From: an uncultured bacterium
GTDB taxonomy: Bacteria; Desulfobacterota_D; UBA1144; Nemesobacterales; UBA2774
NCBI GenBank assembly: GCA_963705505.1
Contig: CAVPJU010000006.1
Location: forward strand, 448,001 to 512,000
Reading direction: 5' to 3'
DNA: 64,000 nucleotides
The notes under the pieces were generated by a model that was not told where the DNA came from, ran no database searches, and saw only the letters and a list, made by a program, of their open reading frames with translations. Every line of letters starts with the position of its first letter. Within the stretch, counting starts at the first letter, position 1. Both the position numbers and the translations under genes were made by a program. Of the stretch, positions 3 through 26,412 are shown piece by piece.

Positions 3-383
3 ATCGTAAAACCGTTCAGCCCCCGCGAGCTCGTAGCCAGGGTAAAGACGGTGTTAAGGAGAACCGGGGCCAAAGAATCGGACGATAATATAATAAAGAT
101 CGGCCCGCTGACCATAAACACCGAAAAATACGAGGTCTCGGTGGATAACGATAAAATCCTCCTCACGACGACCGAGTTCAAGATACTCGAAGTGCTCGCC
201 GACGGTAAGGGCAGGGTATTTACAAGGGATCAGCTCTTGAAAAAGAAACGGCTTTGGGGTGATGATAAACTTGTCTATGACAGAACTATCGACGTCCACA
301 TCAAGAATCTCCGGGAGAAGCTGGGAACAGCAGGGAATATGATTAAAACAGTCAGAAGCATAGGTTATAAATTAGAAGAGTAG
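3..383 (+). CDS. OmpR/PhoB-family response regulator, C-terminal part (5' end outside window)
   Basis: Frame is open from position 3: IVKPFSPRELVARVKTVLRR (end of receiver), then winged helix LTTTEFKIL...RTIDVHIKNLREKL...IKTVRSIGY; directly upstream of a PhoR-like kinase. Confidence 0.9.
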   Translation: MVKPFSPRELVARVKTVLRRTGAKESDDNIIKIGPLTINTEKYEVSVDNDKILLTTTEFKILEVLADGKGRVFTRDQLLKKKRLWGDDKLVYDRTIDVHIKNLREKLGTAGNMIKTVRSIGYKLEE

Positions 384-390
384 GTAACTG

Positions 391-2160
391 TTGAGCATAT
401 TTTGGAAGCAGTTCATTTCCAGTTTTCTGATAATATTCCTCGTATTGTTTCTGTTCACTTTCCTCGTCATAGGTGAATTAAAAGATTACGATAAATCACT
501 CACCAAAGACAGGCTTCTGACCACCGCCAACCTCGTGAGCGAGGTCCTGAAACATCCTATAGACCAAGGTAATCCGGCAGAAATACAGCAACTGGTATCG
601 GAGCTCGGTGAGAAGACAGGGGTCAGGGTCACTGTAATCGCACGCGACGGCAGAGTTCTGGGCGATTCCACCAGGAACCCCGCGGAAATGGAAAACCACT
701 CGGACAGGCCCGAGATAAGGGAAGCCATATCGAACGACATCGGCGAGAGCAGCCGATACAGCGAGACCCTTCAAAAGCAGATGTCCTATGTAGCCGTCCC
801 GTACAGGGACGGCAGCGGCCAGATAAGGGCCGTCATACGGACTTCGCTCCCCCTGAGCTCGCTTGAAAACGCGATCCACCCGATCGAAAAGAAAGTCATC
901 TACCTGGGAACGGCTCTTACAGTGCTTGCGATATTCCTCTCTCTCGCGCTCTCGAAAACGATAACCATATCGCTCAGGGGGATTATGAATATTTCCGAAG
1001 AGCTCGCAAAAGGGAACCTCAACGTGAGCATTCCCGTGGCGGGCAGGAAAAATGAACTTTCCACGATCTCGGCAGCGCTCAACCGCATGGCTCAAAAATT
1101 AAACGAGCTGTTCAAGCAGTTGTCGAGGGAAAAGAACCAGCTCGAAGCCGTGCTCAGCGCCATGAGCGAAGGCGTAATGGTCGTATCCCATGAAGGCAGG
1201 GTGATCATCATTAATAACGCCTTAAAAAAGATGTTCAACCTGAAGGAGGACCCGACACGTAAACCCTACTGGGAGATATTGAGAAACAGGGAATTGACCA
1301 AACTGGTGGAAAGCGTGCTTGAGAACTGGATGCCCGACAGCCGGGAGATATTCTATCTCTATCCGGACGAAAAGTATTATTTCGTAAACGTCATTCCGCT
1401 CGATTCCCCGGATAAAGAGCTCATAGTGGTAATGTTCGACATCACCGACTTCAAAAGGCTCGAAAAGATAAAAGCGGATTTCATAGCCAATGTTTCGCAC
1501 GAACTGAGGACACCGCTTACCGCTATCATGGGGTATACCGAGACGCTCGAGGAAGAGGCTTATGAGAGCCCGGAGGACCAGAAGCACTTTTTAAGGATAA
1601 TAAAGCGCCACACGGACAGGCTCATAAACATTGTATCGGACCTGCTCGTTTTGTCGGAGGTCGAAAGCAGGGACTCTCTTTCGAAAGAGAATTCCGCAAA
1701 CGACCTCGAGGAAATCGACATAAACGAAGTTATTAAATCCTCTCTCGAAGCGCTCCGATCGAAAGCCGCGGAAAAGGAGCTCGAGGTGTCGTTCGAGGCC
1801 GCCAAAGACGTCTATAGAGTCAAAGCGAACAGATTCCTTCTCGAGCAGATGTTCATCAATTTGATAGACAACGCCGTAAAGTACACACCGGAAAACGGGA
1901 AGATCCGCATCAGGGTCTCAAACTCGGACTCTCAGGTACTGACCGAGATAGCGGATACGGGCATAGGGATACCGAAAGAGCACCTGCCCAGGATATTCGA
2001 GCGGTTTTACAGGGTCGACAAAACACGCTCGAGAAACCTCGGGGGCACAGGACTCGGACTCAGCATAGTCAAACATGTAGTGATAATGCACGGCGGTAAA
2101 ATAGAGGTCCAGAGCGAAGAGGGGAAGGGGAGTAAATTCAGTATAACCATCCCTCAGTAG
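391..2160 (+). CDS. phoR: PhoR-like sensor histidine kinase (TM, HAMP, PAS, HisKA, HATPase)
   Basis: H-box ANVSHELRTPLT, N-box NLIDNAVKY, G-boxes DTGIGI and GGTGLGLSIV; periplasmic MENHSDRPEI motif typical of PhoR. Confidence 0.8.
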   Translation: MSIFWKQFISSFLIIFLVLFLFTFLVIGELKDYDKSLTKDRLLTTANLVSEVLKHPIDQGNPAEIQQLVSELGEKTGVRVTVIARDGRVLGDSTRNPAEMENHSDRPEIREAISNDIGESSRYSETLQKQMSYVAVPYRDGSGQIRAVIRTSLPLSSLENAIHPIEKKVIYLGTALTVLAIFLSLALSKTITISLRGIMNISEELAKGNLNVSIPVAGRKNELSTISAALNRMAQKLNELFKQLSREKNQLEAVLSAMSEGVMVVSHEGRVIIINNALKKMFNLKEDPTRKPYWEILRNRELTKLVESVLENWMPDSREIFYLYPDEKYYFVNVIPLDSPDKELIVVMFDITDFKRLEKIKADFIANVSHELRTPLTAIMGYTETLEEEAYESPEDQKHFLRIIKRHTDRLINIVSDLLVLSEVESRDSLSKENSANDLEEIDINEVIKSSLEALRSKAAEKELEVSFEAAKDVYRVKANRFLLEQMFINLIDNAVKYTPENGKIRIRVSNSDSQVLTEIADTGIGIPKEHLPRIFERFYRVDKTRSRNLGGTGLGLSIVKHVVIMHGGKIEVQSEEGKGSKFSITIPQ

Positions 2161-16194: not shown

Positions 16195-17074
16195 TTAGAT
16201 CGACGAAAAGAATTTTAAGAGCTCGTCGGATACGTCTTCCGGTTTTTCCTCGGGAAGGAAATGGCCGCAGTCGAGCGCACGTCCTTGGACGTTCACAGCT
16301 TTTTCTTTCCACGTATCGATTACATCGTAAGTCCTGTGTATGAACCCCTTGCCTCCCCACAGCACTAAAAGCGGGCAAGCGATCTTTTTATCGAAGTCTT
16401 CCTCATCGTGTACGAGGTCTATTGTCGCCGCCGCCCTGTAATCCTCGCAGCTCGCGTGAATAGCGGCGGGGTCGCTGAAGCACCTCACGTATTCACTCAC
16501 GGCATTTTCATCGAACCGGGCGCCGGGCGCGCTCCAGCGTCTGAGCTTTTCTTTGAGATAATATTCCGGATCGCACCCGATCATTTTTTCAGGGAGGTTG
16601 TCGGGCTGGATTAAGAAGAACCAGTGGTAGTAGCCTGTCGCGAACGCCTTGTCCGCGCCCTTGAACATCGTATGCGTGGGAGCGATGTCCATGACGCAAG
16701 CGGCTTCTATGCGGTCCGGATAGTCAAGAGCCATCCTGTGCGTTACCCTTCCTCCCCTGTCGTGCCCTGCCGCGAAGAAGCTCTTATATCCGAGGGATTC
16801 CATTACCTCGACGCAGTCCCTTGGCCATAGCGCGCTTGGAATACGTGTGGTGGTCGGGAGAGGATTCGGGCTTCGAGCTGTCCCCGTAGCCTCTTAAGTC
16901 CATGCATACGACGTGGAAGTTTTCCGCGAGCCCGGGCGCGGTCCTGTGCCACATCACGTGCGTCTGAGGGTATCCGTGGAGCAGCAGGAGGGGCCTGCCC
17001 TTTCCCCCGTGGACGAGATTGATTACTGCGCCCGAGGTTTCGATTTTAGTCTTTTGGAATTTGTCGTCGAACAT
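16195..17074 (-). pseudogene. Fluoroacetate/haloacetate dehalogenase-like alpha/beta hydrolase with a one-base frameshift
   Basis: [10 protein letters not shown] and DLRGYGDS in 16784-17074; GHDRGGRV, YYHWFF, CEDYRA, CGHFLPEE in 16195-16803; removing one base of the run at 16818-16820 joins them ([14 protein letters not shown]). Confidence 0.85.
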
Positions 17075-17126
17075 GACGGTCGATCACCGACTGGGAAATT
17101 GCAATTACCTCTATTCAATTTTGACG

Positions 17127-18008
17127 CTATATATTGTTTCTGTCGAGCGACCTGTACTGTATCGCTTCGGATATGTGGTGAGCGAGGACGGTTTCGGAGC
17201 CTTCGAGGTCGGCGATAGTGCGGGAGACTTTCAATATTCTGTCATAGGCCCTTGCGCTCAAGCCGAGTTTATCAATCGCGGTCTCGAGCAGCTTTATCCC
17301 TTTCTCATCCGGTCTCGATGCTTTCCTGACCATTGACGGAGACATCTGGGAATTCGAGTGAATTTTGCTCCTCTTGAACCTCGCCTTCTGTATCTCCCTC
17401 GCGCGGTTGACGCGGCTCTTGATCGGGGACGAGCTTTCCCCTCCCGCTTCGTCGGCGAGCTCCTTATACCTCACGGGCGGGACTTCTATGTGTATATCTA
17501 TCCTGTCGAGGAGCGGTCCGGAGACCTTCGCCCTGTATTTCTGTATCTGTATGGGCGAGCAGGTGCACTCTTTTTGCAGATCGCCGTGATACCCGCATGG
17601 GCATGGGTTCATCGCCGCGACCAGCATGAAGTTGGCGGGGTATGTGATCGAAGTGGACGCCCTCGATATCGTCACCATGCCGTCCTCGAGAGGCTGGCGC
17701 ATTACTTCGAGGACATTCTTCCTGAATTCCGGGAGCTCGTCGAGAAAAAGGACGCCGTTATGCGCGAGGCTCACCTCGCCCGGCTTAGGGATCGCGCCCC
17801 CGCCTATGAGCCCGGCGTCGCTTATCGTGTGGTGAGGGGAGCGGAAGGGCCTCGTCGCGTATAGCGATGAATGGTTGGGGAGAAGGCCCGACACGGAGTA
17901 TATCTTCGTCGTCTCCAGCGCTTCCTCGAAGCTCATATCGGGGAGTATGGTGGGGAGTCTCCGGGCGAGCATCGTTTTCCCCGTGCCGGGGGAGCCAATC
18001 ATGAGCAC
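17127..18008 (-). pseudogene. comM: ComM/YifB Mg-chelatase-like ATPase, C-terminal fragment
   Basis: Begins [83 protein letters not shown]. Confidence 0.95.
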
Positions 18009-18052
18009 ACATGATCTCTTAAACTCCAGATAATCAAGAAATGGTTCATCTG

Positions 18053-20008
18053 TCAGATTGGGAGACCGTTCTCGTCCAGCCCAGCGAGAGCTCTAGTGGC
18101 TTCTAGGTATAGCTGTAAACGGCGGGAGTTTTCCGCTACCGAAAAATGCTTTTTTAGATTGATGCGTTCACTCAAAGAAGGAAGCGCGAATAATCGGGTT
18201 TGGAGCGAGTACTCGAGTGCTGACTCAATAGCAGGAAACAACCCGTTATCACTGATTAATTGAATGACTGTTCGCGCCGTATTGGCAGCTTCCACAGCTT
18301 TGGCCGGAGGTGATGCGTTCGATGGAAACCAACTAGGTACACCGCCTGCATTTTTCCATCGGTTTTGAATACCGACGGTGCGCCAAATCAGCTCTCCGGT
18401 AGGGAAGCGCGTATCTGCAATATGCGGAGGGTTGTAGTAAACCGCCGGTTGTTTCCAAAAGTCGAGTGCAGATTGTATCGTGGTTGTGAGTGAATCCGCG
18501 TGAGCTTGTGTCCAGCCGGCCGTGTTCAACAGGGATGGAAGCCAACTGGAAGCAGGTACGGCGTTCTTCCATTCCTTTTTTGACTCCTTCGTACTGTCGG
18601 ACTCCCATTGGGTGCTGAGCGAACGCATGTCCTTTAACAGCCGGATCAGGATGCCCATGAATAGAACGTCGCCGAGGTGGTAGCGAAGATAGGCCGTGTA
18701 GGGGCCGAATCTCGGCATCTGCACGGCGCGTGACCTGTCACGCCAGGCGAGAAGTGTGGCGGGGTTGGTTCGAGACTGATACCACCGGGCTGCAACGGTT
18801 AAGGTTATGAATGTGGAGTTTCCGTAATCATCGCCCAGTAAAGCCAGCTTGCGCGCGGTTGCTGAGTCAGGTATCCCACGAGGTTTATGCATTTGCAACA
18901 GCTGGTTTATCTGTGTGTAGGCAGCCTCAAGACTCGCCGAAACGGCCGGTAGGTCCGCCTGAGTTTCGATTGAACTCATCCATAGGGTTTCTACTAGCCG
19001 GTCGAAGGAGGGTTTGTATGAGGTCGAAAGCCTATTACGACGAGTTAGGTCCACGACTGGTGATATGTTGGAAGCGGCGTGAGTTTCTGCCAAAGCACGT
19101 AGCTCGTCTCCCAAAGGAAGAGGCCACGACGTAATCGCATCCAATCCACCCAGCCAATTCAAATTCTCCTCCGTCAAAGTGAGCCGGTAACTTTCGTCTT
19201 TGTGATCCATGGCGACGTCTGCTTGCCTGATCATGATCCACCCTGGCCTGCTGAGAGCATCGTTGGTCAGCGTAGTGTCGGTTGTGCGAAATACATTGGG
19301 CTCACGGCATGTGCCTTCCATCGTAAGAGTCAGAGGCCCATTAGGGAAACTACGCTCAGGAGGTGTGCAGCAGAAATTGCCTTCCAGTCGGTACAGAGCC
19401 ATCATTTCAGTAAAGGGGATCGATCGGTTACCTGAGGCCACGAGTGGCGAAACTAGAACACTCATACGGGATGTATAATCGAACCGCAGCAGTAGTTCGT
19501 GGACTTGACGTGCGGCCTGCACACCTAACGCTTGCAGCTCACGTGACAGTGAGCCGGTCTGTCCAAGGAGTGTTTGCCGCATTATAGAGAGAAGCTCCGT
19601 ACCACTAAAAGAGGATAACTGCGCAACGAATGCAGCGATCTCGTCAAGCGCCACCATGCAACGATAGTCGTGCAAAAAGACATCATCCAAGATTTCGGAC
19701 TGGTGGAGTGCAATCCGCGAATCGATTGTGGCGAGGAGTGAATTATTCGATGCCGCAAGTGCAAAAGCGATGCCGGGAGGCGGTGCTGATTCTAGTCGGG
19801 ACAGATCGGAGATCCATGCTGAAAGCACTCCGGTCCAATAGCTTCGAGCTGCCTGCAGTCTGGAGGGATTGTCAACGATTTTCAGCGCTTCGTTGGGGTT
19901 CATGGTCGGTCCACCATCCCAAAGGGTACCGATACCAGCCATTAAACGATATCCGAGCTCTATGATTAGCTCGGCAAAACTGAGATCTAATTTGTGCTGG
20001 TCAGGCAT
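18053..20008 (-). CDS. Hypothetical protein (~651 aa), island cargo gene 2
   Basis: Long ORF; ATG at 20008 has AGGTG upstream and overlaps the stop of the upstream gene by 8 nt (ORF track starts at 20017). Confidence 0.85.
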
Positions 20009-23000
20009 GTTTAACACCTGCCCTTTGCAATACTTTGGACTGCGGTTTTATCTTTTGGGACCTCACTTTGCTCACCAACCGCTCTCTCGATTCTTTCCGA
20101 CGTATCTTGTGTTCGAACAGATGCTGCCCTGAGGGCTTTCGCGGTGACTTTCGCTTCTGAGGTTTACCGGGCATTAGTACAATCACTCTCGTCGGAGGTT
20201 TCGGAGCCGCAGATGCGGGGACAGCGACGAAAGTCGCGGTCTGTTCGATGCGGCTATCGCTCTCTGCGATCACAATCAGTATTGTATGGAGACCTTCGTA
20301 TAAAGATCCCAGTTTCAGCACGGTTCGCAATCGTAATGTTATGTCAGATTGCTGCTTGAGCTTGGGCATCCGACCTGCCGGGATTTTCGAATCGAGGGCC
20401 CACGTAGCGGCGGTCTTCTTCTTTTGCGACCTGTTCTTGCTCATCCGGATCGCTTGGTCGAAGTGTTGACCCCACACGCCTATATTGTCTCTCAGATTGA
20501 CGATTGGAAGTCGCAGGCCATCGAGTGCGGTTTCAACTTCAAAACGGTCGAGCTCTAGCTCGACGCCGTCGAGCCAAACGAAGACTCGCTGTTGTTCGTT
20601 CTCGCCAAGCCCAAGGAAGGACTGAGGTACACCTTCCAGTTCGATCTGGACGGTGACGTCGCGATCATAAGCGCTGGCATGCTTCGGTTCAACGATGTTA
20701 ATCGATCTCGGGCCAGGTAGCGTTTCAGCTAATTGAGTATTTACGTGCGTCTGTTCCTGCTTCACATCGCTCTGCGTGTGTTCTGCCTCTGCCAGCTCTT
20801 GCTCAAGACCGAATGCATGGGCGAGCGCCTCGGCTAAGTCGTTCGCGGCGCTCTCAAACAGTTGCAGCCCACTAATCAAGCTTCGCAGGGTCGGCTCAAT
20901 CCAGCTGAGGTTCAAGTGAACGGAACCAAGATTGATGTCCACTTCAAACCTTCGCGTGCGCAAGTGCGCTCCCGACCAGTCTATCTCCACAACCTGCATG
21001 TTCCAAGCGACCTCAAAGCCGATGGGAATTGTTGGAGAGTGTCCAAGGCGGTCCAGAACACGATCGACAAACCAATCCACTAAAATCCCCGAAATCTCGC
21101 TAGCCAGATTCGCTCCTGGCTCCACATCTCGGAAGCGATCCATTAGATCGTCCACCTCATTGCTGACAGCCTCGATCGCTTCCCAGATTGCGTCCGCAAA
21201 GGAATTGTCTAGAAGATCGTTGATGGTGTTTCGTAATTGATTTCGTGCAGACTGCTTAGCTGATCTGGGAAGAGACTTGTACACAATGTTGTCGGTCAAA
21301 ATCGGTTTGATGAATTTATACACTTCATCAACCAATGCGGAACGGATAGCGTTTCTGCCGGCGCCCGTGGAGAGCATCGAGATGAGCGAACGTAGCTCAG
21401 CGAAAGCAGCGGTAAATGCAGCACCGACCTGAGCGATTAATTGTGATATCTGCTGTGCGAGATCTGCAAGCAGTGCGAGGATATCCAGCGCTAGTTGATT
21501 CAGCTGATTCAACCATTGCTGAACCTGTTCCTGGATAGCTTTGATAACTTCCAACAGATCCTCGAGCAGCTTCTGACCAAGCCGCAAAAGCAGCTTGGTC
21601 ACGAAGAGTTGGAAGCGCTGCCCGGCTATGCCGGCTAACTCATGGGAGAGTGCATCCAGAGTAAGGGGGTCAGGTACAAAGGTGTTATCAGCCAGTTGCT
21701 GAACGAAAGAGCCCTGGTTATCCAGAGGCAATGGCTCTAAGAGCTGGAACATAGCTTCGCGGATGTGTACGCGGGTTTCCGGTGGCAGTGGCCCGAAAAC
21801 TTCCCCCCCAATCCGAAGAACTTCTTGGCATAATTCTTCAATGTCCTCCGCGTTCGAGTTGCCTACCAGTGGCGTCAAGGTATCAACTAGTCCGACTTCA
21901 TCAACATGATCGGCGAGATCGAACATCAGGTCTTGCATTTCTCTCTGTGCAGTAGTCATGAGAATGTCAGTCGTGACGGCGAGACTGCGCCCAAGCAGCA
22001 TGATTAACACACTCGACAGCGCTTCGGTAAAAACACTCTTGTCGATAGGATCGGTATCCCAGGTGAGGATACGGTCGAATACCAGATCCGTGGATAGCGA
22101 CATGGAAGGCATCAGCACTTCGTCAAAATACAGGCGGAGGTCGGGATTTTCGCTCGACACATTTTGCACAATGGGCTCTAGCTGCTGTCGGACACCATCT
22201 TCAAGGAAGCTTGAAAGTCCTCCGGCGAGCGAGCTCAGACTCGCTTGAACATCGGGTCTTCCCTGGGCGTTATTTTTGAATGGCCCAAGCTGTGTCAAGA
22301 GAATCTCAGCAACCTGGGATAGTCCTGCAGCTACTTTGTCCTGGAAAATTTCCAAAAAGACCTTTACGTCCGGCGCGAGAGCGATGGCAAGCTGGACGCC
22401 CTCAGTCAACAGATACTGGATGAGCTCGTTCAGTTGTAATGCACTGGTAGTATTGTTGCCGCGAATTTCACGACGAATGTCACTTCCCGGGTCGGACACC
22501 ACCGATCCAGTGAAACTTTGTTGAGCGCTTGCCGGATTAAGACCCACTAGTGAGAAGGAGGCCCGTGCTTGGGGCTGGTCGAGTCGATCTGAGCAAACGC
22601 GCATCAATTCCATAGCAGCCCACAGGATCGCCACAGGTTTTCGAGGCAGTGTCGCATTAGGACTAACCGCGTCGAGCGCGGCAACGGCGAGCGGTACGAG
22701 CTCGGACCAGTAGCTGAGGCTTGTGGTCGCGAAGGGGTCATCTGGACACTGCGTCATCTTCAAGCCGAGTGCGCTAATTGCAGAATTGGCTGTATCCCAA
22801 CTGTTGCCGCTGAGCGTGGCAAGCTCGGATTCGAGGGTTTGTTGCAAATTGAGGAGACCAGCGGTTGCGATGCGCTGCAACAGGTAGCGCTGGCTTTCTT
22901 CCAAGATGACTTGGCAGCAGCGAAGAGCCAAACGCTTGGCACCGTCGGATGTGACTGGTACAGGCTCAGTTCCATTACCAAGCAGGATTCCGATCTCGTA

Positions 23001-23759
23001 AGCGGTACGGAAGGCAATCTTTGCCGGGGCTGAGAAAGCTCTAACAATGGACGCTTCGTTGATGGCCGTGGGTGGTAGCTGGCCTATAATCTGCGAAACG
23101 ACTTCATCGACGACCACGTCCACTGAGCGGCTCACCAGGCGGTCGAAGTTCGTGATGCCAGCATTGACGAAAAATCGAAATCCCGCGCCTGCTTTGAGGC
23201 CAGCTCCCATCTCAAAGAGGAAATTGAAACCGGGCTTTTCGTTCTGTGTAGGACCTTGCAGAGCACGTCCTGTTACTACAAGGTTCACATAGGCCATGGC
23301 GGAAGCGGCCGCCTTCGCATATAGGCCTCCGCCGAATGTTACTTCATCGAGAAAAATCACGAAGAGTTTCAGCGGTAAACCTTTCACCTTTAGGTCGTTC
23401 TGAACCAGGCTTAGTAGATCTCCTGCGCTTAAGCCAAGCCTTAGAGAAACGCCAGCCGCGGCCTCAGCTGATAGCTTGAGACGCACAGCGAGGCCGATCT
23501 CATCGAATAGGTTAAGCGGCACCTGCACTTGGCCTGTGATACGCACTTCGGCCATGGCTTGGCCGGTCAGCTCGGCGGCGATATATTTTTGGAAATTTGC
23601 ATCAAGGTTAATATATGCGCCTAAGCCAAGGTCGAAGGCAATTCCGTGCCTGACCTCAGCCTTGAGTGTGGCAAGAACGTTCCCCTGTATCCCCGCACTT
23701 CCCCAAGGACTGGAAGCACCGGCGGCTGCAGTGACAATTGGCTGGTCCAAATTCGGCAT
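20001..23759 (-). CDS. Hypothetical protein (1252 aa), island cargo gene 1
   Basis: Uninterrupted 3.76 kb ORF; Gly/Ala-rich alternating beta-strand N-terminus, long helical/coiled-coil middle, beta-rich region near the C-terminus, basic tail. Confidence 0.9.
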   Translation of the reverse strand: MPNLDQPIVTAAAGASSPWGSAGIQGNVLATLKAEVRHGIAFDLGLGAYINLDANFQKYIAAELTGQAMAEVRITGQVQVPLNLFDEIGLAVRLKLSAEAAAGVSLRLGLSAGDLLSLVQNDLKVKGLPLKLFVIFLDEVTFGGGLYAKAAASAMAYVNLVVTGRALQGPTQNEKPGFNFLFEMGAGLKAGAGFRFFVNAGITNFDRLVSRSVDVVVDEVVSQIIGQLPPTAINEASIVRAFSAPAKIAFRTAYEIGILLGNGTEPVPVTSDGAKRLALRCCQVILEESQRYLLQRIATAGLLNLQQTLESELATLSGNSWDTANSAISALGLKMTQCPDDPFATTSLSYWSELVPLAVAALDAVSPNATLPRKPVAILWAAMELMRVCSDRLDQPQARASFSLVGLNPASAQQSFTGSVVSDPGSDIRREIRGNNTTSALQLNELIQYLLTEGVQLAIALAPDVKVFLEIFQDKVAAGLSQVAEILLTQLGPFKNNAQGRPDVQASLSSLAGGLSSFLEDGVRQQLEPIVQNVSSENPDLRLYFDEVLMPSMSLSTDLVFDRILTWDTDPIDKSVFTEALSSVLIMLLGRSLAVTTDILMTTAQREMQDLMFDLADHVDEVGLVDTLTPLVGNSNAEDIEELCQEVLRIGGEVFGPLPPETRVHIREAMFQLLEPLPLDNQGSFVQQLADNTFVPDPLTLDALSHELAGIAGQRFQLFVTKLLLRLGQKLLEDLLEVIKAIQEQVQQWLNQLNQLALDILALLADLAQQISQLIAQVGAAFTAAFAELRSLISMLSTGAGRNAIRSALVDEVYKFIKPILTDNIVYKSLPRSAKQSARNQLRNTINDLLDNSFADAIWEAIEAVSNEVDDLMDRFRDVEPGANLASEISGILVDWFVDRVLDRLGHSPTIPIGFEVAWNMQVVEIDWSGAHLRTRRFEVDINLGSVHLNLSWIEPTLRSLISGLQLFESAANDLAEALAHAFGLEQELAEAEHTQSDVKQEQTHVNTQLAETLPGPRSINIVEPKHASAYDRDVTVQIELEGVPQSFLGLGENEQQRVFVWLDGVELELDRFEVETALDGLRLPIVNLRDNIGVWGQHFDQAIRMSKNRSQKKKTAATWALDSKIPAGRMPKLKQQSDITLRLRTVLKLGSLYEGLHTILIVIAESDSRIEQTATFVAVPASAAPKPPTRVIVLMPGKPQKRKSPRKPSGQHLFEHKIRRKESRERLVSKVRSQKIKPQSKVLQRAGVKHA

Positions 23760-24109
23760 TAGGCAAGCATCCTTACAATAGAAGGCTAACTAATAATAAG
23801 AACGCAATTAATGCAAAATTACATTCGAAATGAAGGGTTTTACAATATAATTCGCTATTAATCCTGATACTACAACAATTATAATTTCTCGTCAACAAGG
23901 TATATAGAAACAGAATAGAGGCAAAGCAAAAACTATTAGATCAGTTTGTTGTGATCATGTTCAATAATTATATTAGCTTCCCGAATGACGATATTGAAGT
24001 AAGATTTCAGATAAAATCGTAATATAACTTTGTTCACAAAACAATTAAGTATCAACAAGAATGTTTCTTTATAGAACAGAAAAAGGGAAACACAATTGTG
24101 GATTTCTGG

Positions 24110-24781
24110 CTATAACGTAAGCACGTTGTGCACGTTGTGCCCGCCGCTCGCCGCGACTTCGAGAGCCCTCTTTACGTGCTCCTGCCCTTTCACCTCGTGG
24201 AAATCGACGTCGTAGGTCTTTGCCTTTGTGAATATCGATCCTATATCTATCCTCGTCGGAGGGATTTCCTTTTTGCCTGCGAGAAACTCGATTAATTCCT
24301 GGAGGGATTCTATCGCGAATACGTCAACACCCTCGACGACCGCGGCTTCTTCCGCGTTTTCTTTAGGGAGAAATATTCCCTTGAGCCCCGAGTCCCTCAC
24401 GCAAATAGAAGAGGGCAATGCGCCCTTAATCGGCTTTACCCTGCCGTCGAGTGAGAGCTCGCCGAGGATTACATACCTGCTCAGGAGCTCGTGGTCTATC
24501 AGTCCTATCGCGGAGAGGATTCCAAGCGAGATGGGGAGGTCGAAGGCCGAGCCCTCTTTCCTTATGTCGGCGGGGGCCAGGTTGACCGTGATCCTTCTGG
24601 AAGGGAATTCGTAGCCGCAGTTCTTTATAGCCGCCCTCACTCTCTCCTTGCTTTCCCTGACCGCGCCTTCGGGGAGGCCTACTGTGTTGAACTGCGGGAG
24701 CCCGAACGCGAGGTCCACCTCGACATCCACCAGGTAGGCGTCGACTCCGAGTACTGCGCTGCTCAGGACTTTTGACATCAT
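24110..24781 (-). pseudogene. comM: ComM/YifB, N-terminal fragment (Lon-like ChlI domain)
   Basis: VGLPEGAVRESKERVRAA, ITVNLAPADIRKEGSAFDLPI, GELSLDG, VKGQEHVKRALEVAASGGHNV, then junction-derived HNVLTL-stop. Confidence 0.95.
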
Positions 24782-24973
24782 GTTAGCGGGGCCTATTGCA
24801 ACCTTAAATGCCTTTTTTATATCGGGTTATGAAATAAAAATCAATCTAAGAACTAAAATAGTATTTTACCCTGACCTGCTCGAACATCTTTTGTCTTGAG
24901 GACAATCCTCCGGGTATGCAGGGATCCTAGTAAAAAACGTTCGGCAACGAGGGCATTAATCTCACTTTTACAA

Positions 24974-25030
24974 TTGACAACCCGGGCATTCTTATTAATA
25001 TTTATAGCAGTCTAAGTAAGTACTTACTTA
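24974..25030 (+). promoter_or_regulatory. Sigma-70 promoter and perfect 18-bp palindromic operator upstream of the RND operon
   Basis: TTGACA 24974-24979, N16, TAATAT 24996-25001; TAAGTAAGTACTTACTTA 25013-25030. Confidence 0.65.
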
Positions 25031-25218
25031 CACTTTCTTCAAAGCTTTTCACCGGACGGGCAGTAGAATGAAGAACCTGATATATGCTGGTAATTTATAA
25101 TTACGGCTGACAAATGATCAGACCCGCAGGCTTTCGGGTGCGGGTCTTGAGGTATTGTGAAAGTGGATGAAATTCGCTCCGGGCTTTTTCGAATAGTGAG
25201 GACGGGAGGAAAAATTTT

Positions 25219-26412
25219 ATGACTCGTCTATGGTCGCAATACCTTATCACGATTGCGGCATCTTTGATGCTTATCACGGCTTGTTCCGGGGATAGTAATA
25301 AGCAGGCTGAAAAAGCGGCACAGAAAGCTCAGGGAGCGGCTGTTCCCGTGAGGGTGGCCAGCGTAAAGCAAAAGGACGTGCCTGTTCAGCTTCACGCAGT
25401 GGGCAACGTCGAAGAGTATTCAAAGGTGGACGTAAAGCCCCAGGTGGACGGAGAGCTCGCGCGGATCTACTTCAACGAAGGTGATAACGTAAAGAAGGGC
25501 GAGCTGCTTTTTCTCCTGGACACACGCCCGTTCGAATACGCGCTCCGGGTATCCGAAGCCAACATGGCGAGGGATACTGCTCAGATGAAAAAGGCGAAAG
25601 AGGACGCCAGGCGGTACGAGGACCTGGTCAAGAGGGGGGTCGTCTCAGAGCAGCAGTATGAGCAGTACAGCGCGGATTATCAGGCCCTCGAAGCGACCGT
25701 CAAGGCCGACGAGGCCGCGGTCGAAAAAGCCGGGCTCGATCTCGAGTACTGCTCCATAAGCTCTCCGATTGACGGGCGCATAGGCGAGATACTGGTCCAT
25801 GTCGGAAACACCGTTGAGAAGAGGTCTACACTTCTTGCCGTTATTAATCAGACGAAGCCCGTATATGTAAATTTTTCACTGCCCGAGCAGTACTTATCCG
25901 ACGTCAGAAATTATTTGGCTTCCGAAGGTAGTCTCAAAGTATACGCCGACATTCCCAAAGGAAAATCCGGGCCTCCCGAAGGTTCCTTGAAAGAAGAGCC
26001 GGCATCGGAAACGACCGTGTCCGAGACAGTTACGGGGGAGCTCAGCTTTATTAATAACGAGGTGAACGAGTCTACGGGCACGATTATGCTGAAGGGGGTC
26101 TTTCAGAATGACGACGAGGCTCTCTGGCCGGGCAAATTCGTAAATGTGTCGCTTACACTCACTATGCAGCAGGATGCTATCCTGATACCGGCAAAGGCCG
26201 TTCAGACGAGCAGGGACGGGACATACGTTTTCGTGGTCACACCCGATTCCACGGTGGAGTCCCGGCCTGTTGTGGAAGGGGTCAAAGCCGGTCAGGACGT
26301 CGTGATACTTAAGGGGCTTAAGCCCGGAGAGCGTGTAGTTACGGAGGGACACCTTCGTCTCGCTCCCGGCGTAAAGGTGACTATAAAGGACGGCAACGAA
26401 AATGAGGTTTGA
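25219..26412 (+). CDS. RND efflux periplasmic adaptor (MdtA-like lipoprotein)
   Basis: Lipobox ITAC; VKPQVDGEL, SISSPIDGRIG, LWPGKFV, GLKPGERVVTEG. Confidence 0.92.
   Translation: MTRLWSQYLITIAASLMLITACSGDSNKQAEKAAQKAQGAAVPVRVASVKQKDVPVQLHAVGNVEEYSKVDVKPQVDGELARIYFNEGDNVKKGELLFLLDTRPFEYALRVSEANMARDTAQMKKAKEDARRYEDLVKRGVVSEQQYEQYSADYQALEATVKADEAAVEKAGLDLEYCSISSPIDGRIGEILVHVGNTVEKRSTLLAVINQTKPVYVNFSLPEQYLSDVRNYLASEGSLKVYADIPKGKSGPPEGSLKEEPASETTVSETVTGELSFINNEVNESTGTIMLKGVFQNDDEALWPGKFVNVSLTLTMQQDAILIPAKAVQTSRDGTYVFVVTPDSTVESRPVVEGVKAGQDVVILKGLKPGERVVTEGHLRLAPGVKVTIKDGNENEV

What the first reader, a model, noticed from the sequence alone, without database searches (positions are those of the whole stretch)
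18053..23759. Two-gene cargo (1252 aa + ~651 aa) of unknown family: candidate undescribed system
Seen: the two ORFs are co-oriented, overlap by 8 nt (ATGCCTGA, suggesting translational coupling), are intact and fill nearly the whole island. I find no signal peptide, P-loop, nuclease, TIR/SIR2, RT or methylase motif. Established: cargo in integration hotspots such as comM is enriched for anti-phage and conflict systems. Inference: a self-contained two-component module retained after loss of mobility genes, possibly a defence system or an envelope-targeting toxin pair (large putative membrane-active protein plus putative muralytic protein).
Basis: partly seen in the sequence, partly recalled or inferred. 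Interest (0 to 1): 0.85.

Follow-up and report, generated by a model that had tools for sequence, protein, structure and literature searches.

The report
Giant scaffold protein with docked lysozyme-like partner
A 6-kb piece of foreign DNA that splits the comM gene carries two coupled genes of families nobody has described: a very large protein and a partner with a lysozyme-like core that appears to plug into it by a short helix, probably a new kind of modular conflict system.

Summary
Two intact, co-oriented ORFs (1252 aa and 651 aa from its ATG) overlap by ATGCCTGA. They fill 93% of a 6.1-kb insert that splits comM.

Neither protein matches Pfam, NCBIfam, PADLOC, PHROGs or any PDB sequence.

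- **ORF-A:** it belongs to a rare family scattered over several phyla, including Bacillus megaplasmids. Its model shows an N-terminal sheet of long strands, about 700 helical residues, and an Ig-like domain with a basic tail.
- **Docking:** a complex model places B's N-terminal helix in a groove of A (ipSAE 0.71, best control 0.00).
- **Pairing:** the A-B pair recurs in three further lineages. In six more distant A loci another, unrelated, translationally coupled gene takes B's place. The two Bacillus copies examined have no partner.
- **Origin:** a related genus carries a serine-recombinase island at the same comM point.

Function is not shown. My best guess is a modular scaffold-plus-effector conflict system. 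Support for anti-phage defence in particular is weak.

The parts
24110..24781 (-). 5' fragment of comM (ChlI N-domain, start of the AAA module), running a few codons into the insert
   Evidence: Pfam ChlI 7.3e-47. Homology to intact comM ends at about 24127.
24119..24139 (-). Left junction (attL-like). It has a 9-nt tandem duplication of comM sequence. The motif ..GTGCT is followed by island DNA that begins TACG.
   Evidence: Sequences read. In the first 24 island bases, 15 match the island at the same comM point in genome G010.
23760..24118 (-). AT-rich non-coding leader of the insert, with a sigma-70-like site at 23895..23867
   Evidence: GC 0.45-0.48. Promoter-like match TTGACG-17-TAGTAT, 9 of 12; this is a consensus match only.
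20001..23759 (-). ORF-A, 1252 aa, the conserved large component of an undescribed family
   Evidence: hhalign to the Bacillus plasmid proteins gives E 2.8e-50 and 4.1e-41.
23145..23759 (-). ORF-A residues 1-205: Gly/Ala-rich domain of eight long beta strands, the most conserved part of the family. Its fold is unassigned.
   Evidence: Invariant columns. DSSP of the model. Not reached by any fold search.
22725..23147 (-). ORF-A residues 205-345: first helical bundle, the predicted docking groove for the partner's N-terminal helix (contacts 222-240, 295-313, 325-343)
   Evidence: Complex model. P339 is invariant and P342/F343 nearly so.
20214..20714 (-). ORF-A residues 1016-1182: Ig/fn3-like beta sandwich interrupted by a disordered basic loop (1080-1138)
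20004..20213 (-). ORF-A residues 1183-1252: Lys/Arg-rich tail. It was not in the model, and its basic character is kept in homologues.
   Evidence: Sequence. Alignment.
18053..20008 (-). ORF-B, 651 aa from the ATG: alpha-helical protein with a lysozyme/GH23-like core, in an unnamed family
19931..19999 (-). ORF-B residues 4-26: amphipathic N-terminal helix, the predicted docking element
   Evidence: Helix 11-23 has low pLDDT when B is modelled alone. It forms the interface in the complex model.
19382..19384 (-). Codon of Glu209 of ORF-B, the candidate catalytic residue
   Evidence: Invariant in 49 of 49 aligned family members. It lies at the C-terminal end of helix 199-208. The only hhalign alignment places it on the catalytic Glu of SLT domains, but with E 0.17, which is not significant.
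18001..18020 (-). Right junction (attR-like): island DNA ends ...ATCATGT and comM resumes at GTGCTCATG
17127..18008 (-). 3' fragment of comM (AAA+ Mg_chelatase and C-terminal domains)
   Evidence: Pfam 4.6e-86 and 1e-32. 87% nucleotide identity to intact comM.

Best explanation
**What it is.** The insert is a horizontally acquired, now immobile island. It was probably placed in comM by a large serine recombinase that is no longer in it. It carries one self-contained two-protein module.

**How it is built.** ORF-A is the constant component: a large cytoplasmic scaffold or sensor of an undescribed family. ORF-B is an exchangeable enzymatic component. B docks by its N-terminal amphipathic helix into a groove of A's first helical bundle. 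B's catalytic core has a lysozyme/lytic-transglycosylase-like fold with Glu209 as the likely acid.

**How it most likely works (inferred).** The module is a conflict system. A holds B inactive or away from its substrate until a trigger. B then attacks peptidoglycan or a peptidoglycan precursor and kills or lyses the cell. That cell could be the producer, as in abortive infection, or a target.

**Shown here**
- The anatomy of the insert and its two genes.
- The families and their spread.
- Partner exchange among ORF-A relatives.
- Fold likeness of ORF-B.
- A modelled A-B interface that passes its controls.

**Inferred**
- Physical binding of A and B.
- Catalysis by B.
- The trigger.
- The biological role.
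For: **Coupling**
- The two ORFs overlap by 8 nt.

**Pair recurrence**
- Vineibacter terrae has the pair under adjacent locus tags (FHP25_29970 and FHP25_29975) on one 74,624-nt contig.
- P0007 is a 2094-aa read-through ORF. It holds an A part at 40% identity and a B part at 28% identity, E 5e-37.

**Docking**
- Complex model of A 1-960 with B 1-38: score 0.71, best of 3 controls 0.00.
- That mark was reached by 116 of 157 solved complexes and 2 of 215 mismatched pairs.
- The runs agree in at least 91% of contacts, and the partner's pLDDT is at least 59.
- The interface includes the family-wide P339-x-x-P-F element.

**Exchangeable partner**
- In 6 of 6 distant A loci with readable downstream DNA (L001, L002, L004, L005, L016, L018), a different ORF of 247-391 aa follows A. 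In the five junctions I could read (L002, L004, L005, L016, L018) it overlaps A's stop or starts within 5 nt of it. In L001 the partner's start was not fixed.
- None of these is a B relative by tblastn or by a B-family HMM.
- Only L001 and L004 resemble each other.
- By my reading, all begin with a short hydrophobic helix followed by Gly/Pro.

**ORF-B fold**
- The model has pLDDT 88.9 and pTM 0.91.
- Glu209 is invariant in 49 of 49 members, within an SLT-like motif.

**Foreign origin**
- ORF-A was found in 0 of 30 related genomes.
- The closest relative, at 65% identity, is in an alphaproteobacterium.
- The same comM point in genome G010 holds a 25.5-kb island. Its large serine recombinase gene abuts comM.

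**Conflict flavour**
- Islands in comM of relatives carry an Eco57I-type methylase and a Schlafen/AlbA_2 protein.
- The B. thuringiensis plasmid copy lies 3-5 kb from MNT/HEPN and Hachiman genes.
- The family is patchy and rare.
Against: **No functional data.** Nothing here measures activity, binding or phenotype.

**Weak support for defence**
- Neither protein hits PADLOC.
- I scanned 54 neighbour ORFs of 7 distant loci. Only one gave a strong hit: a generic Ser/Thr kinase matching PD-T4-6.
- The other neighbours are ordinary genes such as histidine kinases, PhoX, an M20 peptidase, MFS and ClpX-like proteins.

**ORF-B's glycosidase assignment is not secure**
- B has no export signal, although peptidoglycan is periplasmic.
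- Pfam SLT does not match.
- hhalign against SLT domains gives Prob 0.35%, E 0.17.

**The docking reading has gaps**
- The modelled contact residues are no more conserved than the rest of the helical region: 0.438 against 0.484, permutation p 0.87.
- Most distant B-family members lack the N-terminal helix.
- The genomic context of those members is unknown. No contig length is shared between 24 clusters looked up and the A list.
- The two Bacillus plasmid A proteins examined have no co-directional partner, so A can stand alone.
- The B alignment used for the complex had only 3 rows.
Confidence: 0.42

Rival explanations
1. This is an antibacterial or anti-eukaryote toxin complex. ORF-A would be a carrier with a receptor-binding Ig-like domain and a translocation part, delivering non-covalently bound interchangeable enzymes to the envelope of other cells after release or secretion. 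The enzymes would include the lysozyme-like B and possibly, in other loci, proteases.
For: - The downstream enzymes vary while sharing an N-terminal adaptor helix.
- ORF-A has an Ig-like domain.
- The Bacillus thuringiensis/cereus megaplasmids are, from my recollection, rich in toxins.
Against: - No immunity gene follows the partner in any of the 7 loci read. The modules are strictly two genes.
- Neither protein has a signal peptide.
- This 93.6%-complete genome has no TssC and no contractile sheath.
- ORF-A carries no known secretion-associated domain.
Confidence: 0.2
2. This is an accessory cell-envelope or structural module without a conflict role. ORF-A would be a cytoskeleton-like or surface-associated scaffold that positions a specialised cell-wall-remodelling enzyme.
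For: - Neighbourhoods of distant homologues are mostly ordinary genes.
- Specialised lytic transglycosylases commonly serve envelope machines (established knowledge).
- ORF-A is rich in coiled coils.
- The Bacillus copies sit near a gene for an exosporium leader peptide-containing protein and a CsxC gene. One of them carries a (PGV)n collagen-like stretch.
Against: - The distribution is extremely patchy. It was found in 0 of 30 relatives.
- It is carried on an island and on plasmids.
- The partner is replaced by unrelated families.
- There are no export signals.
Confidence: 0.15
3. This is a decaying remnant: two surviving genes of a once larger island, phage or operon, with no present function of their own.
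For: - The island has lost its recombinase, whereas the 25.5-kb island at the same site in G010 keeps one.
- Degraded copies exist elsewhere. The clusters list an A split into 549 + 734 aa and a 391-aa B, all with a 36,268-nt contig length, which I take to be one contig.
- P0007 is a frameshift-like fused ORF.
Against: - Both ORFs are intact and coupled.
- The same two-gene unit, with nothing else conserved around it, recurs in at least 10 unrelated contexts.
- The family is conserved over long distances, with 49 or more invariant columns in A.
- Neither protein has a relative in viral or phage collections.
Confidence: 0.05

Closest known systems
Family-1 (GH23) lytic transglycosylases / goose-type lysozyme superfamily (Slt70, MltC/E/F, T6SS effector Tse3)
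   Different: - No Pfam SLT match, and profile-profile comparison is not significant.
- The core is split by large inserts within a 651-aa protein.
- Several invariant Arg residues are not typical of SLT.
- There is no signal peptide or lipobox.
- It is docked to a 1252-aa partner.
Modular defence systems with swappable effectors (for example Lamassu: an SMC-like coiled-coil protein plus LmuA with varied effector domains). Recalled from memory, not tested here.
   Same: There is a large constant protein with long coiled coils, paired with a variable enzymatic component. The distribution is patchy and mobile.
   Different: - ORF-A has no ATPase head or any NTPase motif.
- No PADLOC model matches.
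- The effector is a separate protein joined by a docking helix, not a fused domain.
- There is no defence-island enrichment.
Cargo-targeting peptides of encapsulins and bacterial microcompartments. Recalled from memory; analogy only.
   Same: Unrelated enzymes share a short terminal amphipathic helix that binds one conserved host protein.
   Different: ORF-A has no HK97 or BMC shell fold. No evidence of a compartment was found.
Polymorphic toxin-immunity cassettes
   Same: An interchangeable enzymatic part sits downstream of a conserved part.
   Different: There is no immunity gene and no secretion-system linkage. The variable part is a separate ORF.
Large-serine-recombinase integrative islands in comM
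   Same: The insertion point is the same as a recombinase-bearing 25.5-kb island in a related genus, and the island-side attL is similar.
   Different: This insert has no recombinase or any other mobility gene.

Membership tests
GH23 / SLT lytic transglycosylase (for ORF-B) | Match to the SLT domain profile (PF01464) | tested here: not met
   No Pfam family at E<=1 for ORF-B. 0 of 49 family members hit any Pfam family at E<=0.01. hhalign against 5 SLT domains of this genome gives Prob 0.35%, E 0.17.
GH23 / SLT lytic transglycosylase (for ORF-B) | Lysozyme-like alpha-helical catalytic fold | tested here: met
GH23 / SLT lytic transglycosylase (for ORF-B) | Catalytic Glu at the end of a helix (the E-S motif) | tested here: inconclusive
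   Glu209 is invariant in 49 of 49 members and lies at the end of helix 199-208. The only hhalign alignment places it on the SLT Glu, but that alignment is not significant. Superposition at residue level was not available.
GH23 / SLT lytic transglycosylase (for ORF-B) | Access to peptidoglycan (signal peptide, lipobox or a dedicated export route) | tested here: not met
   The N-terminus is acidic or amphipathic, with a maximum 19-residue hydropathy of 1.17-1.31. No signal-peptide predictor was available.
GH23 / SLT lytic transglycosylase (for ORF-B) | Muralytic activity | not testable with these tools
   Needs a biochemical assay.
Known anti-phage defence systems (PADLOC-DB v2.0.0) | Match of either protein to a defence-system model | tested here: not met
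   The only hit is ZorA at E 0.072, over a coiled-coil stretch.
Known anti-phage defence systems (PADLOC-DB v2.0.0) | Recurrent location in defence islands | tested here: inconclusive
   In 7 distant loci, 1 has a strong PADLOC neighbour, a generic kinase. The Bt plasmid copy lies near Hachiman and MNT/HEPN genes. comM islands of relatives carry R-M-like and Schlafen-like genes. The sample is too small and mixed to decide.
Polymorphic toxin-immunity system | Cognate immunity gene directly after the toxin | tested here: not met
   No conserved third ORF in the window or in L001, L002, L004, L005, L016 or L018.
Polymorphic toxin-immunity system | Link to a secretion apparatus (T6SS or contractile injection) | tested here: not met
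   PF05943 (TssC) and PF04984 (sheath) were not found in this 93.6%-complete genome. Other secretion routes were not tested.
Holin-endolysin lysis cassette | Small membrane protein with transmembrane helices next to the muralytic enzyme | tested here: not met
   There is no transmembrane-grade segment in ORF-A apart from one borderline internal stretch (1.62). The insert holds no other ORF.
Large-serine-recombinase integrative island | Recombinase gene within the element | tested here: not met
   The insert holds only ORF-A and ORF-B.
Large-serine-recombinase integrative island | Same attB and related element ends as a recombinase-bearing island | tested here: inconclusive
   The comM break point is the same as in G010, whose recombinase gene abuts comM. 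On the island side, 15 of the first 24 bases match at attL, and attR is weaker.

The most novel reading that the evidence does not exclude
ORF-A founds a new class of modular cellular weapon. It would be a giant cytoplasmic sensor-scaffold present from Proteobacteria to Bacillus plasmids. It would hold interchangeable enzymes by a universal N-terminal docking helix and release them on a trigger such as phage infection. In this island the payload is a cytoplasmic lysozyme-fold enzyme. That would make cell-wall or wall-precursor destruction from the inside the killing step of an abortive-infection system.
Probability: 0.25. Interest if true: 0.85.

Novelty: categorically new. Interest (0 to 1): 0.62.

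Why it matters
Both proteins lie outside every curated family and solved structure searched here. Yet they form a conserved, horizontally mobile unit with a clear and testable architecture: a constant giant protein, plus a docking helix, plus a swappable enzyme.

If the docking and the lysozyme-like activity are confirmed, this gives three things:
- a new protein-protein targeting device;
- a new branch of the lysozyme superfamily that works from the cytoplasm;
- probably a new conflict system.

It also shows that comM in this lineage is a serine-recombinase landing site where such cargo collects.

Tried and rejected
**Searches that found nothing useful**
- ESM Atlas gave no usable hit for A or B.
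- Earlier-findings look-ups by place and by sequence returned nothing.
- For the ORF-A model, Foldseek PDB, BFVD viral, VIA wide and VIA second look gave only Ig/fn3 and coiled-coil matches. The N-terminal beta domain was never reached. With both fold jobs spent, it could not be folded alone.
- PDB sequence profiles gave only coiled-coil noise for A and nothing for B.
- B relatives were not found in metagenome contigs. Neither protein was found in viral contigs or the phage collection. B was not found on plasmids.
- The third word-index search, run with the B alignment, returned only the 5 proteins already known.
- Five literature searches (and one 'find' in PMC10121019) turned up no description of this module. 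I saw only listings and abstracts. PMC10121019 does not contain 'comM' or 'yifB'.

**Comparisons of the alternative partners**
- hhalign comparisons were all not significant: the B family against L005d, and the L001d/L004d pair against the B family and against L005d.
- PDB sequence searches of L018d, L016d and L005d found nothing.
- My impression that L002d/L018d carry a His...Cys pair and L016d a papain-like Cys is untested.

**Context matching**
- Matching contig lengths between 24 B-family clusters and the ORF-A list gave no shared contig beyond the close clade.

**Readings considered and dropped**
- Tn7-like insertion. GTGCT is shared at both junctions, and comM is a known Tn7-type target in Acinetobacter (recalled). 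I dropped this because there are no tns genes and no terminal inverted repeats.
- Holin role for ORF-A. It has no transmembrane helices.

**Sequencing runs**
- No RNA holder is listed.
- One 193-nt metagenome contig joins 18004 to 24130, which would be an empty comM site. Only 25 nt lie on its shorter side, below the tool's 31-nt rule, so I do not count it.

**Interface conservation**
- Conservation of the modelled contact residues is not above background.
Full report
**1. Observation**

The window holds two co-oriented minus-strand ORFs. ORF-A runs 20001..23759 and is 1252 aa. ORF-B runs 18053..20017 and is 654 aa from a GTG, or 651 aa from the ATG at 20008. The junction reads ATGCCTGA, so B's ATG overlaps A's stop by 8 nt.

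Pfam on the flanking ORFs shows a split comM. The ChlI N-domain ORF is at 24110..24781, and the Mg_chelatase AAA plus C-terminal domains are at 17127..18008. An intact comM from a same-genus genome (L009) aligns to window 25624-24127 and 18008-17136. The insert is therefore about 18009..24119-24126, roughly 6.1 kb, and the two ORFs fill 93% of it.

The remaining DNA is a 44-nt tail and an AT-rich leader of about 360 nt. The leader contains one sigma-70-like site, which is a consensus match only.

**2. The island and its site**

ORF-A was found in 0 of 30 related genomes: 9 of the same genus, 9 others of the same family, and 12 of the same order.

The comM C-part was found in 24 of those 30. 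In many it lies within an unbroken frame of 510-535 aa. In several the frame is only about 280-306 aa, which indicates a broken comM.

Two relatives were examined in detail:
- **G010:** comM is broken at the same codon as here. Its 25.5-kb insert carries a large serine recombinase gene (Resolvase + Recombinase + Zn_ribbon_recom) abutting the comM C-part. It also holds a Schlafen/AlbA_2-HATPase_c_4 protein and an ImuB-type polymerase.
- **G003:** the insert again starts with a large serine recombinase. It also holds an Eco57I-type methylase and a tyrosine integrase.

The junctions compare as follows:
- Left junctions read ...AACGTGCT|TACGTTATAGCC here and ...AACCTGCT|TACGATGTGGTC in G010. In the first 24 island bases, 15 are identical.
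- The right ends are less alike.
- The window's left junction also has a 9-nt tandem duplication of comM sequence.
- The insert has no terminal inverted repeats.

I infer that the insert is a recombinase-less relative or remnant of a serine-recombinase island family that targets this comM site. This is inference; no recombination was shown.

**3. ORF-A**

No curated family matches ORF-A:
- Pfam, NCBIfam, PADLOC and PHROGs gave only sub-threshold coiled-coil noise.
- A PDB sequence profile likewise gave only coiled-coil noise.

The word-index search found 18 relatives at 29-65% identity. They include Vineibacter terrae (65%), a Nitrospirae MAG and a Bryobacteraceae MAG.

DNA scans added more loci:
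- 6 genome loci from Bryobacteraceae, Alcaligenaceae, Verrucomicrobia, Rhodospirillales and Bacteroidaceae MAGs.
- 3 metagenome loci.

tblastn against plasmids found 11 Bacillus cereus/thuringiensis megaplasmids. Two of these proteins, 1042 and 1110 aa, are clear family members by hhalign:
- Prob 100%, E 2.8e-50 over 968 columns.
- Prob 100%, E 4.1e-41 over 823 columns.

The AlphaFold model covers residues 1-1190, was built from 21 sequences, and has pLDDT 74.9 and pTM 0.58. It shows these parts in order:
- eight long beta strands in residues 7-202, Gly/Ala-rich and the best-conserved part of the family;
- about 700 helical residues, including a 100-residue helix at 698-797;
- a long beta hairpin at 910-948;
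- a 48-residue helix;
- one Ig/fn3-like sandwich at 1016-1182, split by a disordered basic loop.

The Lys/Arg-rich tail (1183-1252) was not modelled.

Fold searches recognised only two features:
- generic coiled coils.

No search reached the N-domain. ORF-A has no transmembrane-grade segment apart from one borderline internal stretch, and no signal-like N-terminus.

**4. ORF-B**

The word-index search found only 4 relatives. An exhaustive HMMER profile search of 1.84 billion cluster representatives found more:

| E-value limit | Proteins |
|---|---|
| <=0.001 | 63 |
| <=1e-10 | 58 |
| <=1e-30 | 36 |

Most are 550-675 aa long. Of the 49 that I aligned, none hits Pfam. The profile hits no PDB sequence.

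The model is confident, with pLDDT 88.9 and pTM 0.91. It is almost all helical. Foldseek found nothing.

|---|---|---|---|
| MltF 5aa1 | 8.5 | 4.1 | 183 |
| Slt70 1qsa | 7.7 | | 193 |
| MltC | 7.6 | | |
| MltE | 7.2 | | 176 (chain length 183) |
| two Slt entries | 7.1, 6.7 | | |
| g-type lysozyme | 6.0 | | |
| MltD | 6.0 | | |
| a chitinase catalytic domain from Ralstonia (3w6b) | 5.8 | | |
| Tse3 | 5.8 | | |
| Cj0843c | 5.6 | | |

Below these come phage endolysins and T7 gp16. The aligned residues span 106..641, so the core is interrupted by inserts.

Sequence features agree with this fold but do not prove it:
- Glu209 is invariant in 49 of 49 members. It ends helix 199-208 and sits in a motif (L-A-L-x-R-Q-E-G ... 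P-P-x-x-S) that recalls the SLT E-S...P.A.S motif.
- The single hhalign alignment to five SLT domains of this genome puts Glu209 on their catalytic Glu. However, Prob is 0.35% and E is 0.17, so it is not significant.
- A second element, Y-L-R-Y-H-x-G-D, occupies the place of the SLT A-Y-N-x-G motif by my reading. This is supported only by a non-significant alignment to the L005 partner, which reads Y-N-S-G.

I conclude that the lysozyme-like fold is likely. GH23 family membership is not established, and the substrate is open. Several invariant arginines and the cytoplasmic location leave room for a wall precursor rather than the sacculus. That last point is speculation.

**5. The pair**

A and B are adjacent in several lineages:
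- **Vineibacter terrae:** locus tags FHP25_29970 and FHP25_29975, with consecutive accessions, on one 74,624-nt contig.
- **Two other lineages:** On the 36,268-nt contig ORF-A is split into 549 + 734 aa and ORF-B is only 391 aa.
- **P0007:** this 2094-aa ORF carries an A part at 40% identity. It then has a stretch that looks out of frame, followed by a B part at 28% identity, E 5e-37. I read this as a frameshift read-through, which still shows adjacency.

In the six distant A loci whose downstream DNA is readable (L001, L002, L004, L005, L016, L018), a different ORF of 247-391 aa follows A. In five of them (L002, L004, L005, L016, L018) the junction sequence shows an ATGA or GTGA overlap or a gap of 2-5 nt. 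In L001 I did not fix the partner's start. For these partners:
- None is B-like by tblastn.
- None is B-like by a B-family HMM run over all six-frame ORFs of the loci.
- None hits Pfam.
- Only the L001 and L004 partners resemble each other, at 27% identity, E about 1e-16.

L003, L006 and L017 end at a contig edge and say nothing.

The two Bacillus plasmid loci examined, out of 11 hits, have no co-directional downstream gene at all.

So ORF-A is the constant part and the partner is exchangeable or dispensable.

**6. Docking**

B's residues 11-23 form a helix that has low confidence when B is modelled alone. By my reading, each alternative partner also starts with a short hydrophobic helix followed by Gly/Pro.

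A complex model of A 1-960 with B 1-38 passed its controls:
- Score 0.71 (runs 0.71, 0.60, 0.71), and best of 3 controls 0.00.
- The mark was reached by 116 of 157 solved complexes and 2 of 215 mismatched pairs. The tool warns that these counts hold only roughly, because my own alignments were used.
- The runs agree in at least 91% of contacts.
- The partner's pLDDT is at least 59.

The interface joins B residues 4-26 to A residues 222-240, 295-313, 325-343 and 462/464.

Evidence against over-reading this result:
- The contact residues are not more conserved than the surrounding helical region: 0.438 against 0.484, permutation p 0.87. The hydrophobic core positions and P339/P342/F343 are nevertheless kept family-wide.
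- Most distant B-family members start directly at the conserved R-L-P-x-G-A-T segment, without the helix. A few keep it: P0027, P0081, P0033 and P0086.
- The genomic context of those distant members could not be retrieved.

**7. What it does**

This is not shown.

Points for a conflict role:
- It is carried on an island and on plasmids, and its distribution is very patchy.
- The enzyme component is swappable.
- Relatives' comM islands carry restriction-modification-like and Schlafen-like genes.
- The Bt plasmid copy lies 3-5 kb from MNT/HEPN and Hachiman genes.

Points against defence specifically:
- There is no PADLOC match.
I left out the 7 A homologues and 8 overlapping or short ORFs, and substituted one strand choice. 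Only a generic Ser/Thr kinase gave a strong hit.

Points against a secreted toxin:
- There is no immunity gene and no signal peptide.
- Neither TssC nor a contractile sheath was found in this 93.6%-complete genome.

My ranking:

| Reading | Confidence |
|---|---|
| Modular scaffold-effector conflict system, with abortive infection the more likely flavour | about 0.42 |
| Delivered toxin complex | 0.2 |
| Non-conflict envelope or structural role | 0.15 |
| Functionless remnant | 0.05 |

**8. Other data**

No RNA run holds the stretch, so expression is untested.

I laid contigs of four metagenome runs from two studies (freshwater sediment and peat) on the stretch. The island pieces listed have 0 differences in 16 of 17 records; one (X1, record 6) has 3. 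The listed flank pieces have 2-14 differences. This hints that the island is more uniform than its surroundings, but depth is low and these are contigs only.

**9. Novelty**

The following give no name to either protein or to the pair:
- Pfam, NCBIfam, PADLOC and PHROGs;
- PDB sequences;
- the ESM Atlas;
- this scan's earlier notes;
- five literature look-ups.

The nearest known things are the GH23 fold for ORF-B's core, and, by analogy only, modular defence systems and cargo-targeting peptides. I rate the module as categorically new in kind, with its function still to be shown.

Noticed in passing
window 16195-17074 (-): An alpha/beta-hydrolase gene next to comM is split into two overlapping ORFs (16784..17074 and 16195..16803). 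Each matches a different part of Abhydrolase_1. It is probably a frameshift or pseudogene.
   Followed up: no
window 24122-24139: A 9-nt tandem duplication (CACAACGTG twice) of comM sequence sits exactly at the left island junction. It is absent from the intact comM of a relative.
   Followed up: partly
L026 (G010:C9) and L027 (G003:C5): comM in related genera and species holds 25-30-kb islands. Each has a large serine recombinase at the comM junction. Cargo includes an Eco57I-type methylase, a Schlafen/AlbA_2-HATPase_c_4 protein and an ImuB-like polymerase. Together these mark a lineage-wide hotspot.
   Followed up: partly
L031:8842-12174 (B. thuringiensis plasmid) and L030:8932-12060 (B. cereus plasmid): These are stand-alone ORF-A family members on Bacillus megaplasmids. 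The Bt copy carries a (PGV)n collagen-like insert. It lies near a gene for an exosporium leader peptide-containing protein, MNT/HEPN and Hachiman genes. The B. cereus copy follows a CAAX/Abi-type protease gene.
   Followed up: partly
P0007; the cluster members listed with 36,268-nt contig length (P0092, P0093, P0024): Damaged copies of the module exist elsewhere. One is a 2094-aa read-through ORF that joins the A and B parts across an out-of-frame-looking stretch. Another has ORF-A split into 549 + 734 aa alongside a 391-aa ORF-B.
   Followed up: partly
window 16500-25500, runs X1-X4: The listed metagenome contig pieces of the island are identical to the window in 16 of 17 records (one has 3 differences). 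The listed pieces of the flanking comM region differ at 2-14 positions. One short contig appears to join comM across the island, but with only 25 nt on one side.
   Followed up: partly
L001:10137-12674: In a Bryobacteraceae MAG, the gene after the two-gene module encodes an 845-aa Ser/Thr kinase with PD40 repeats. It matches PADLOC PD-T4-6 models at E 3.9e-91, probably through its generic kinase domain.
   Followed up: no
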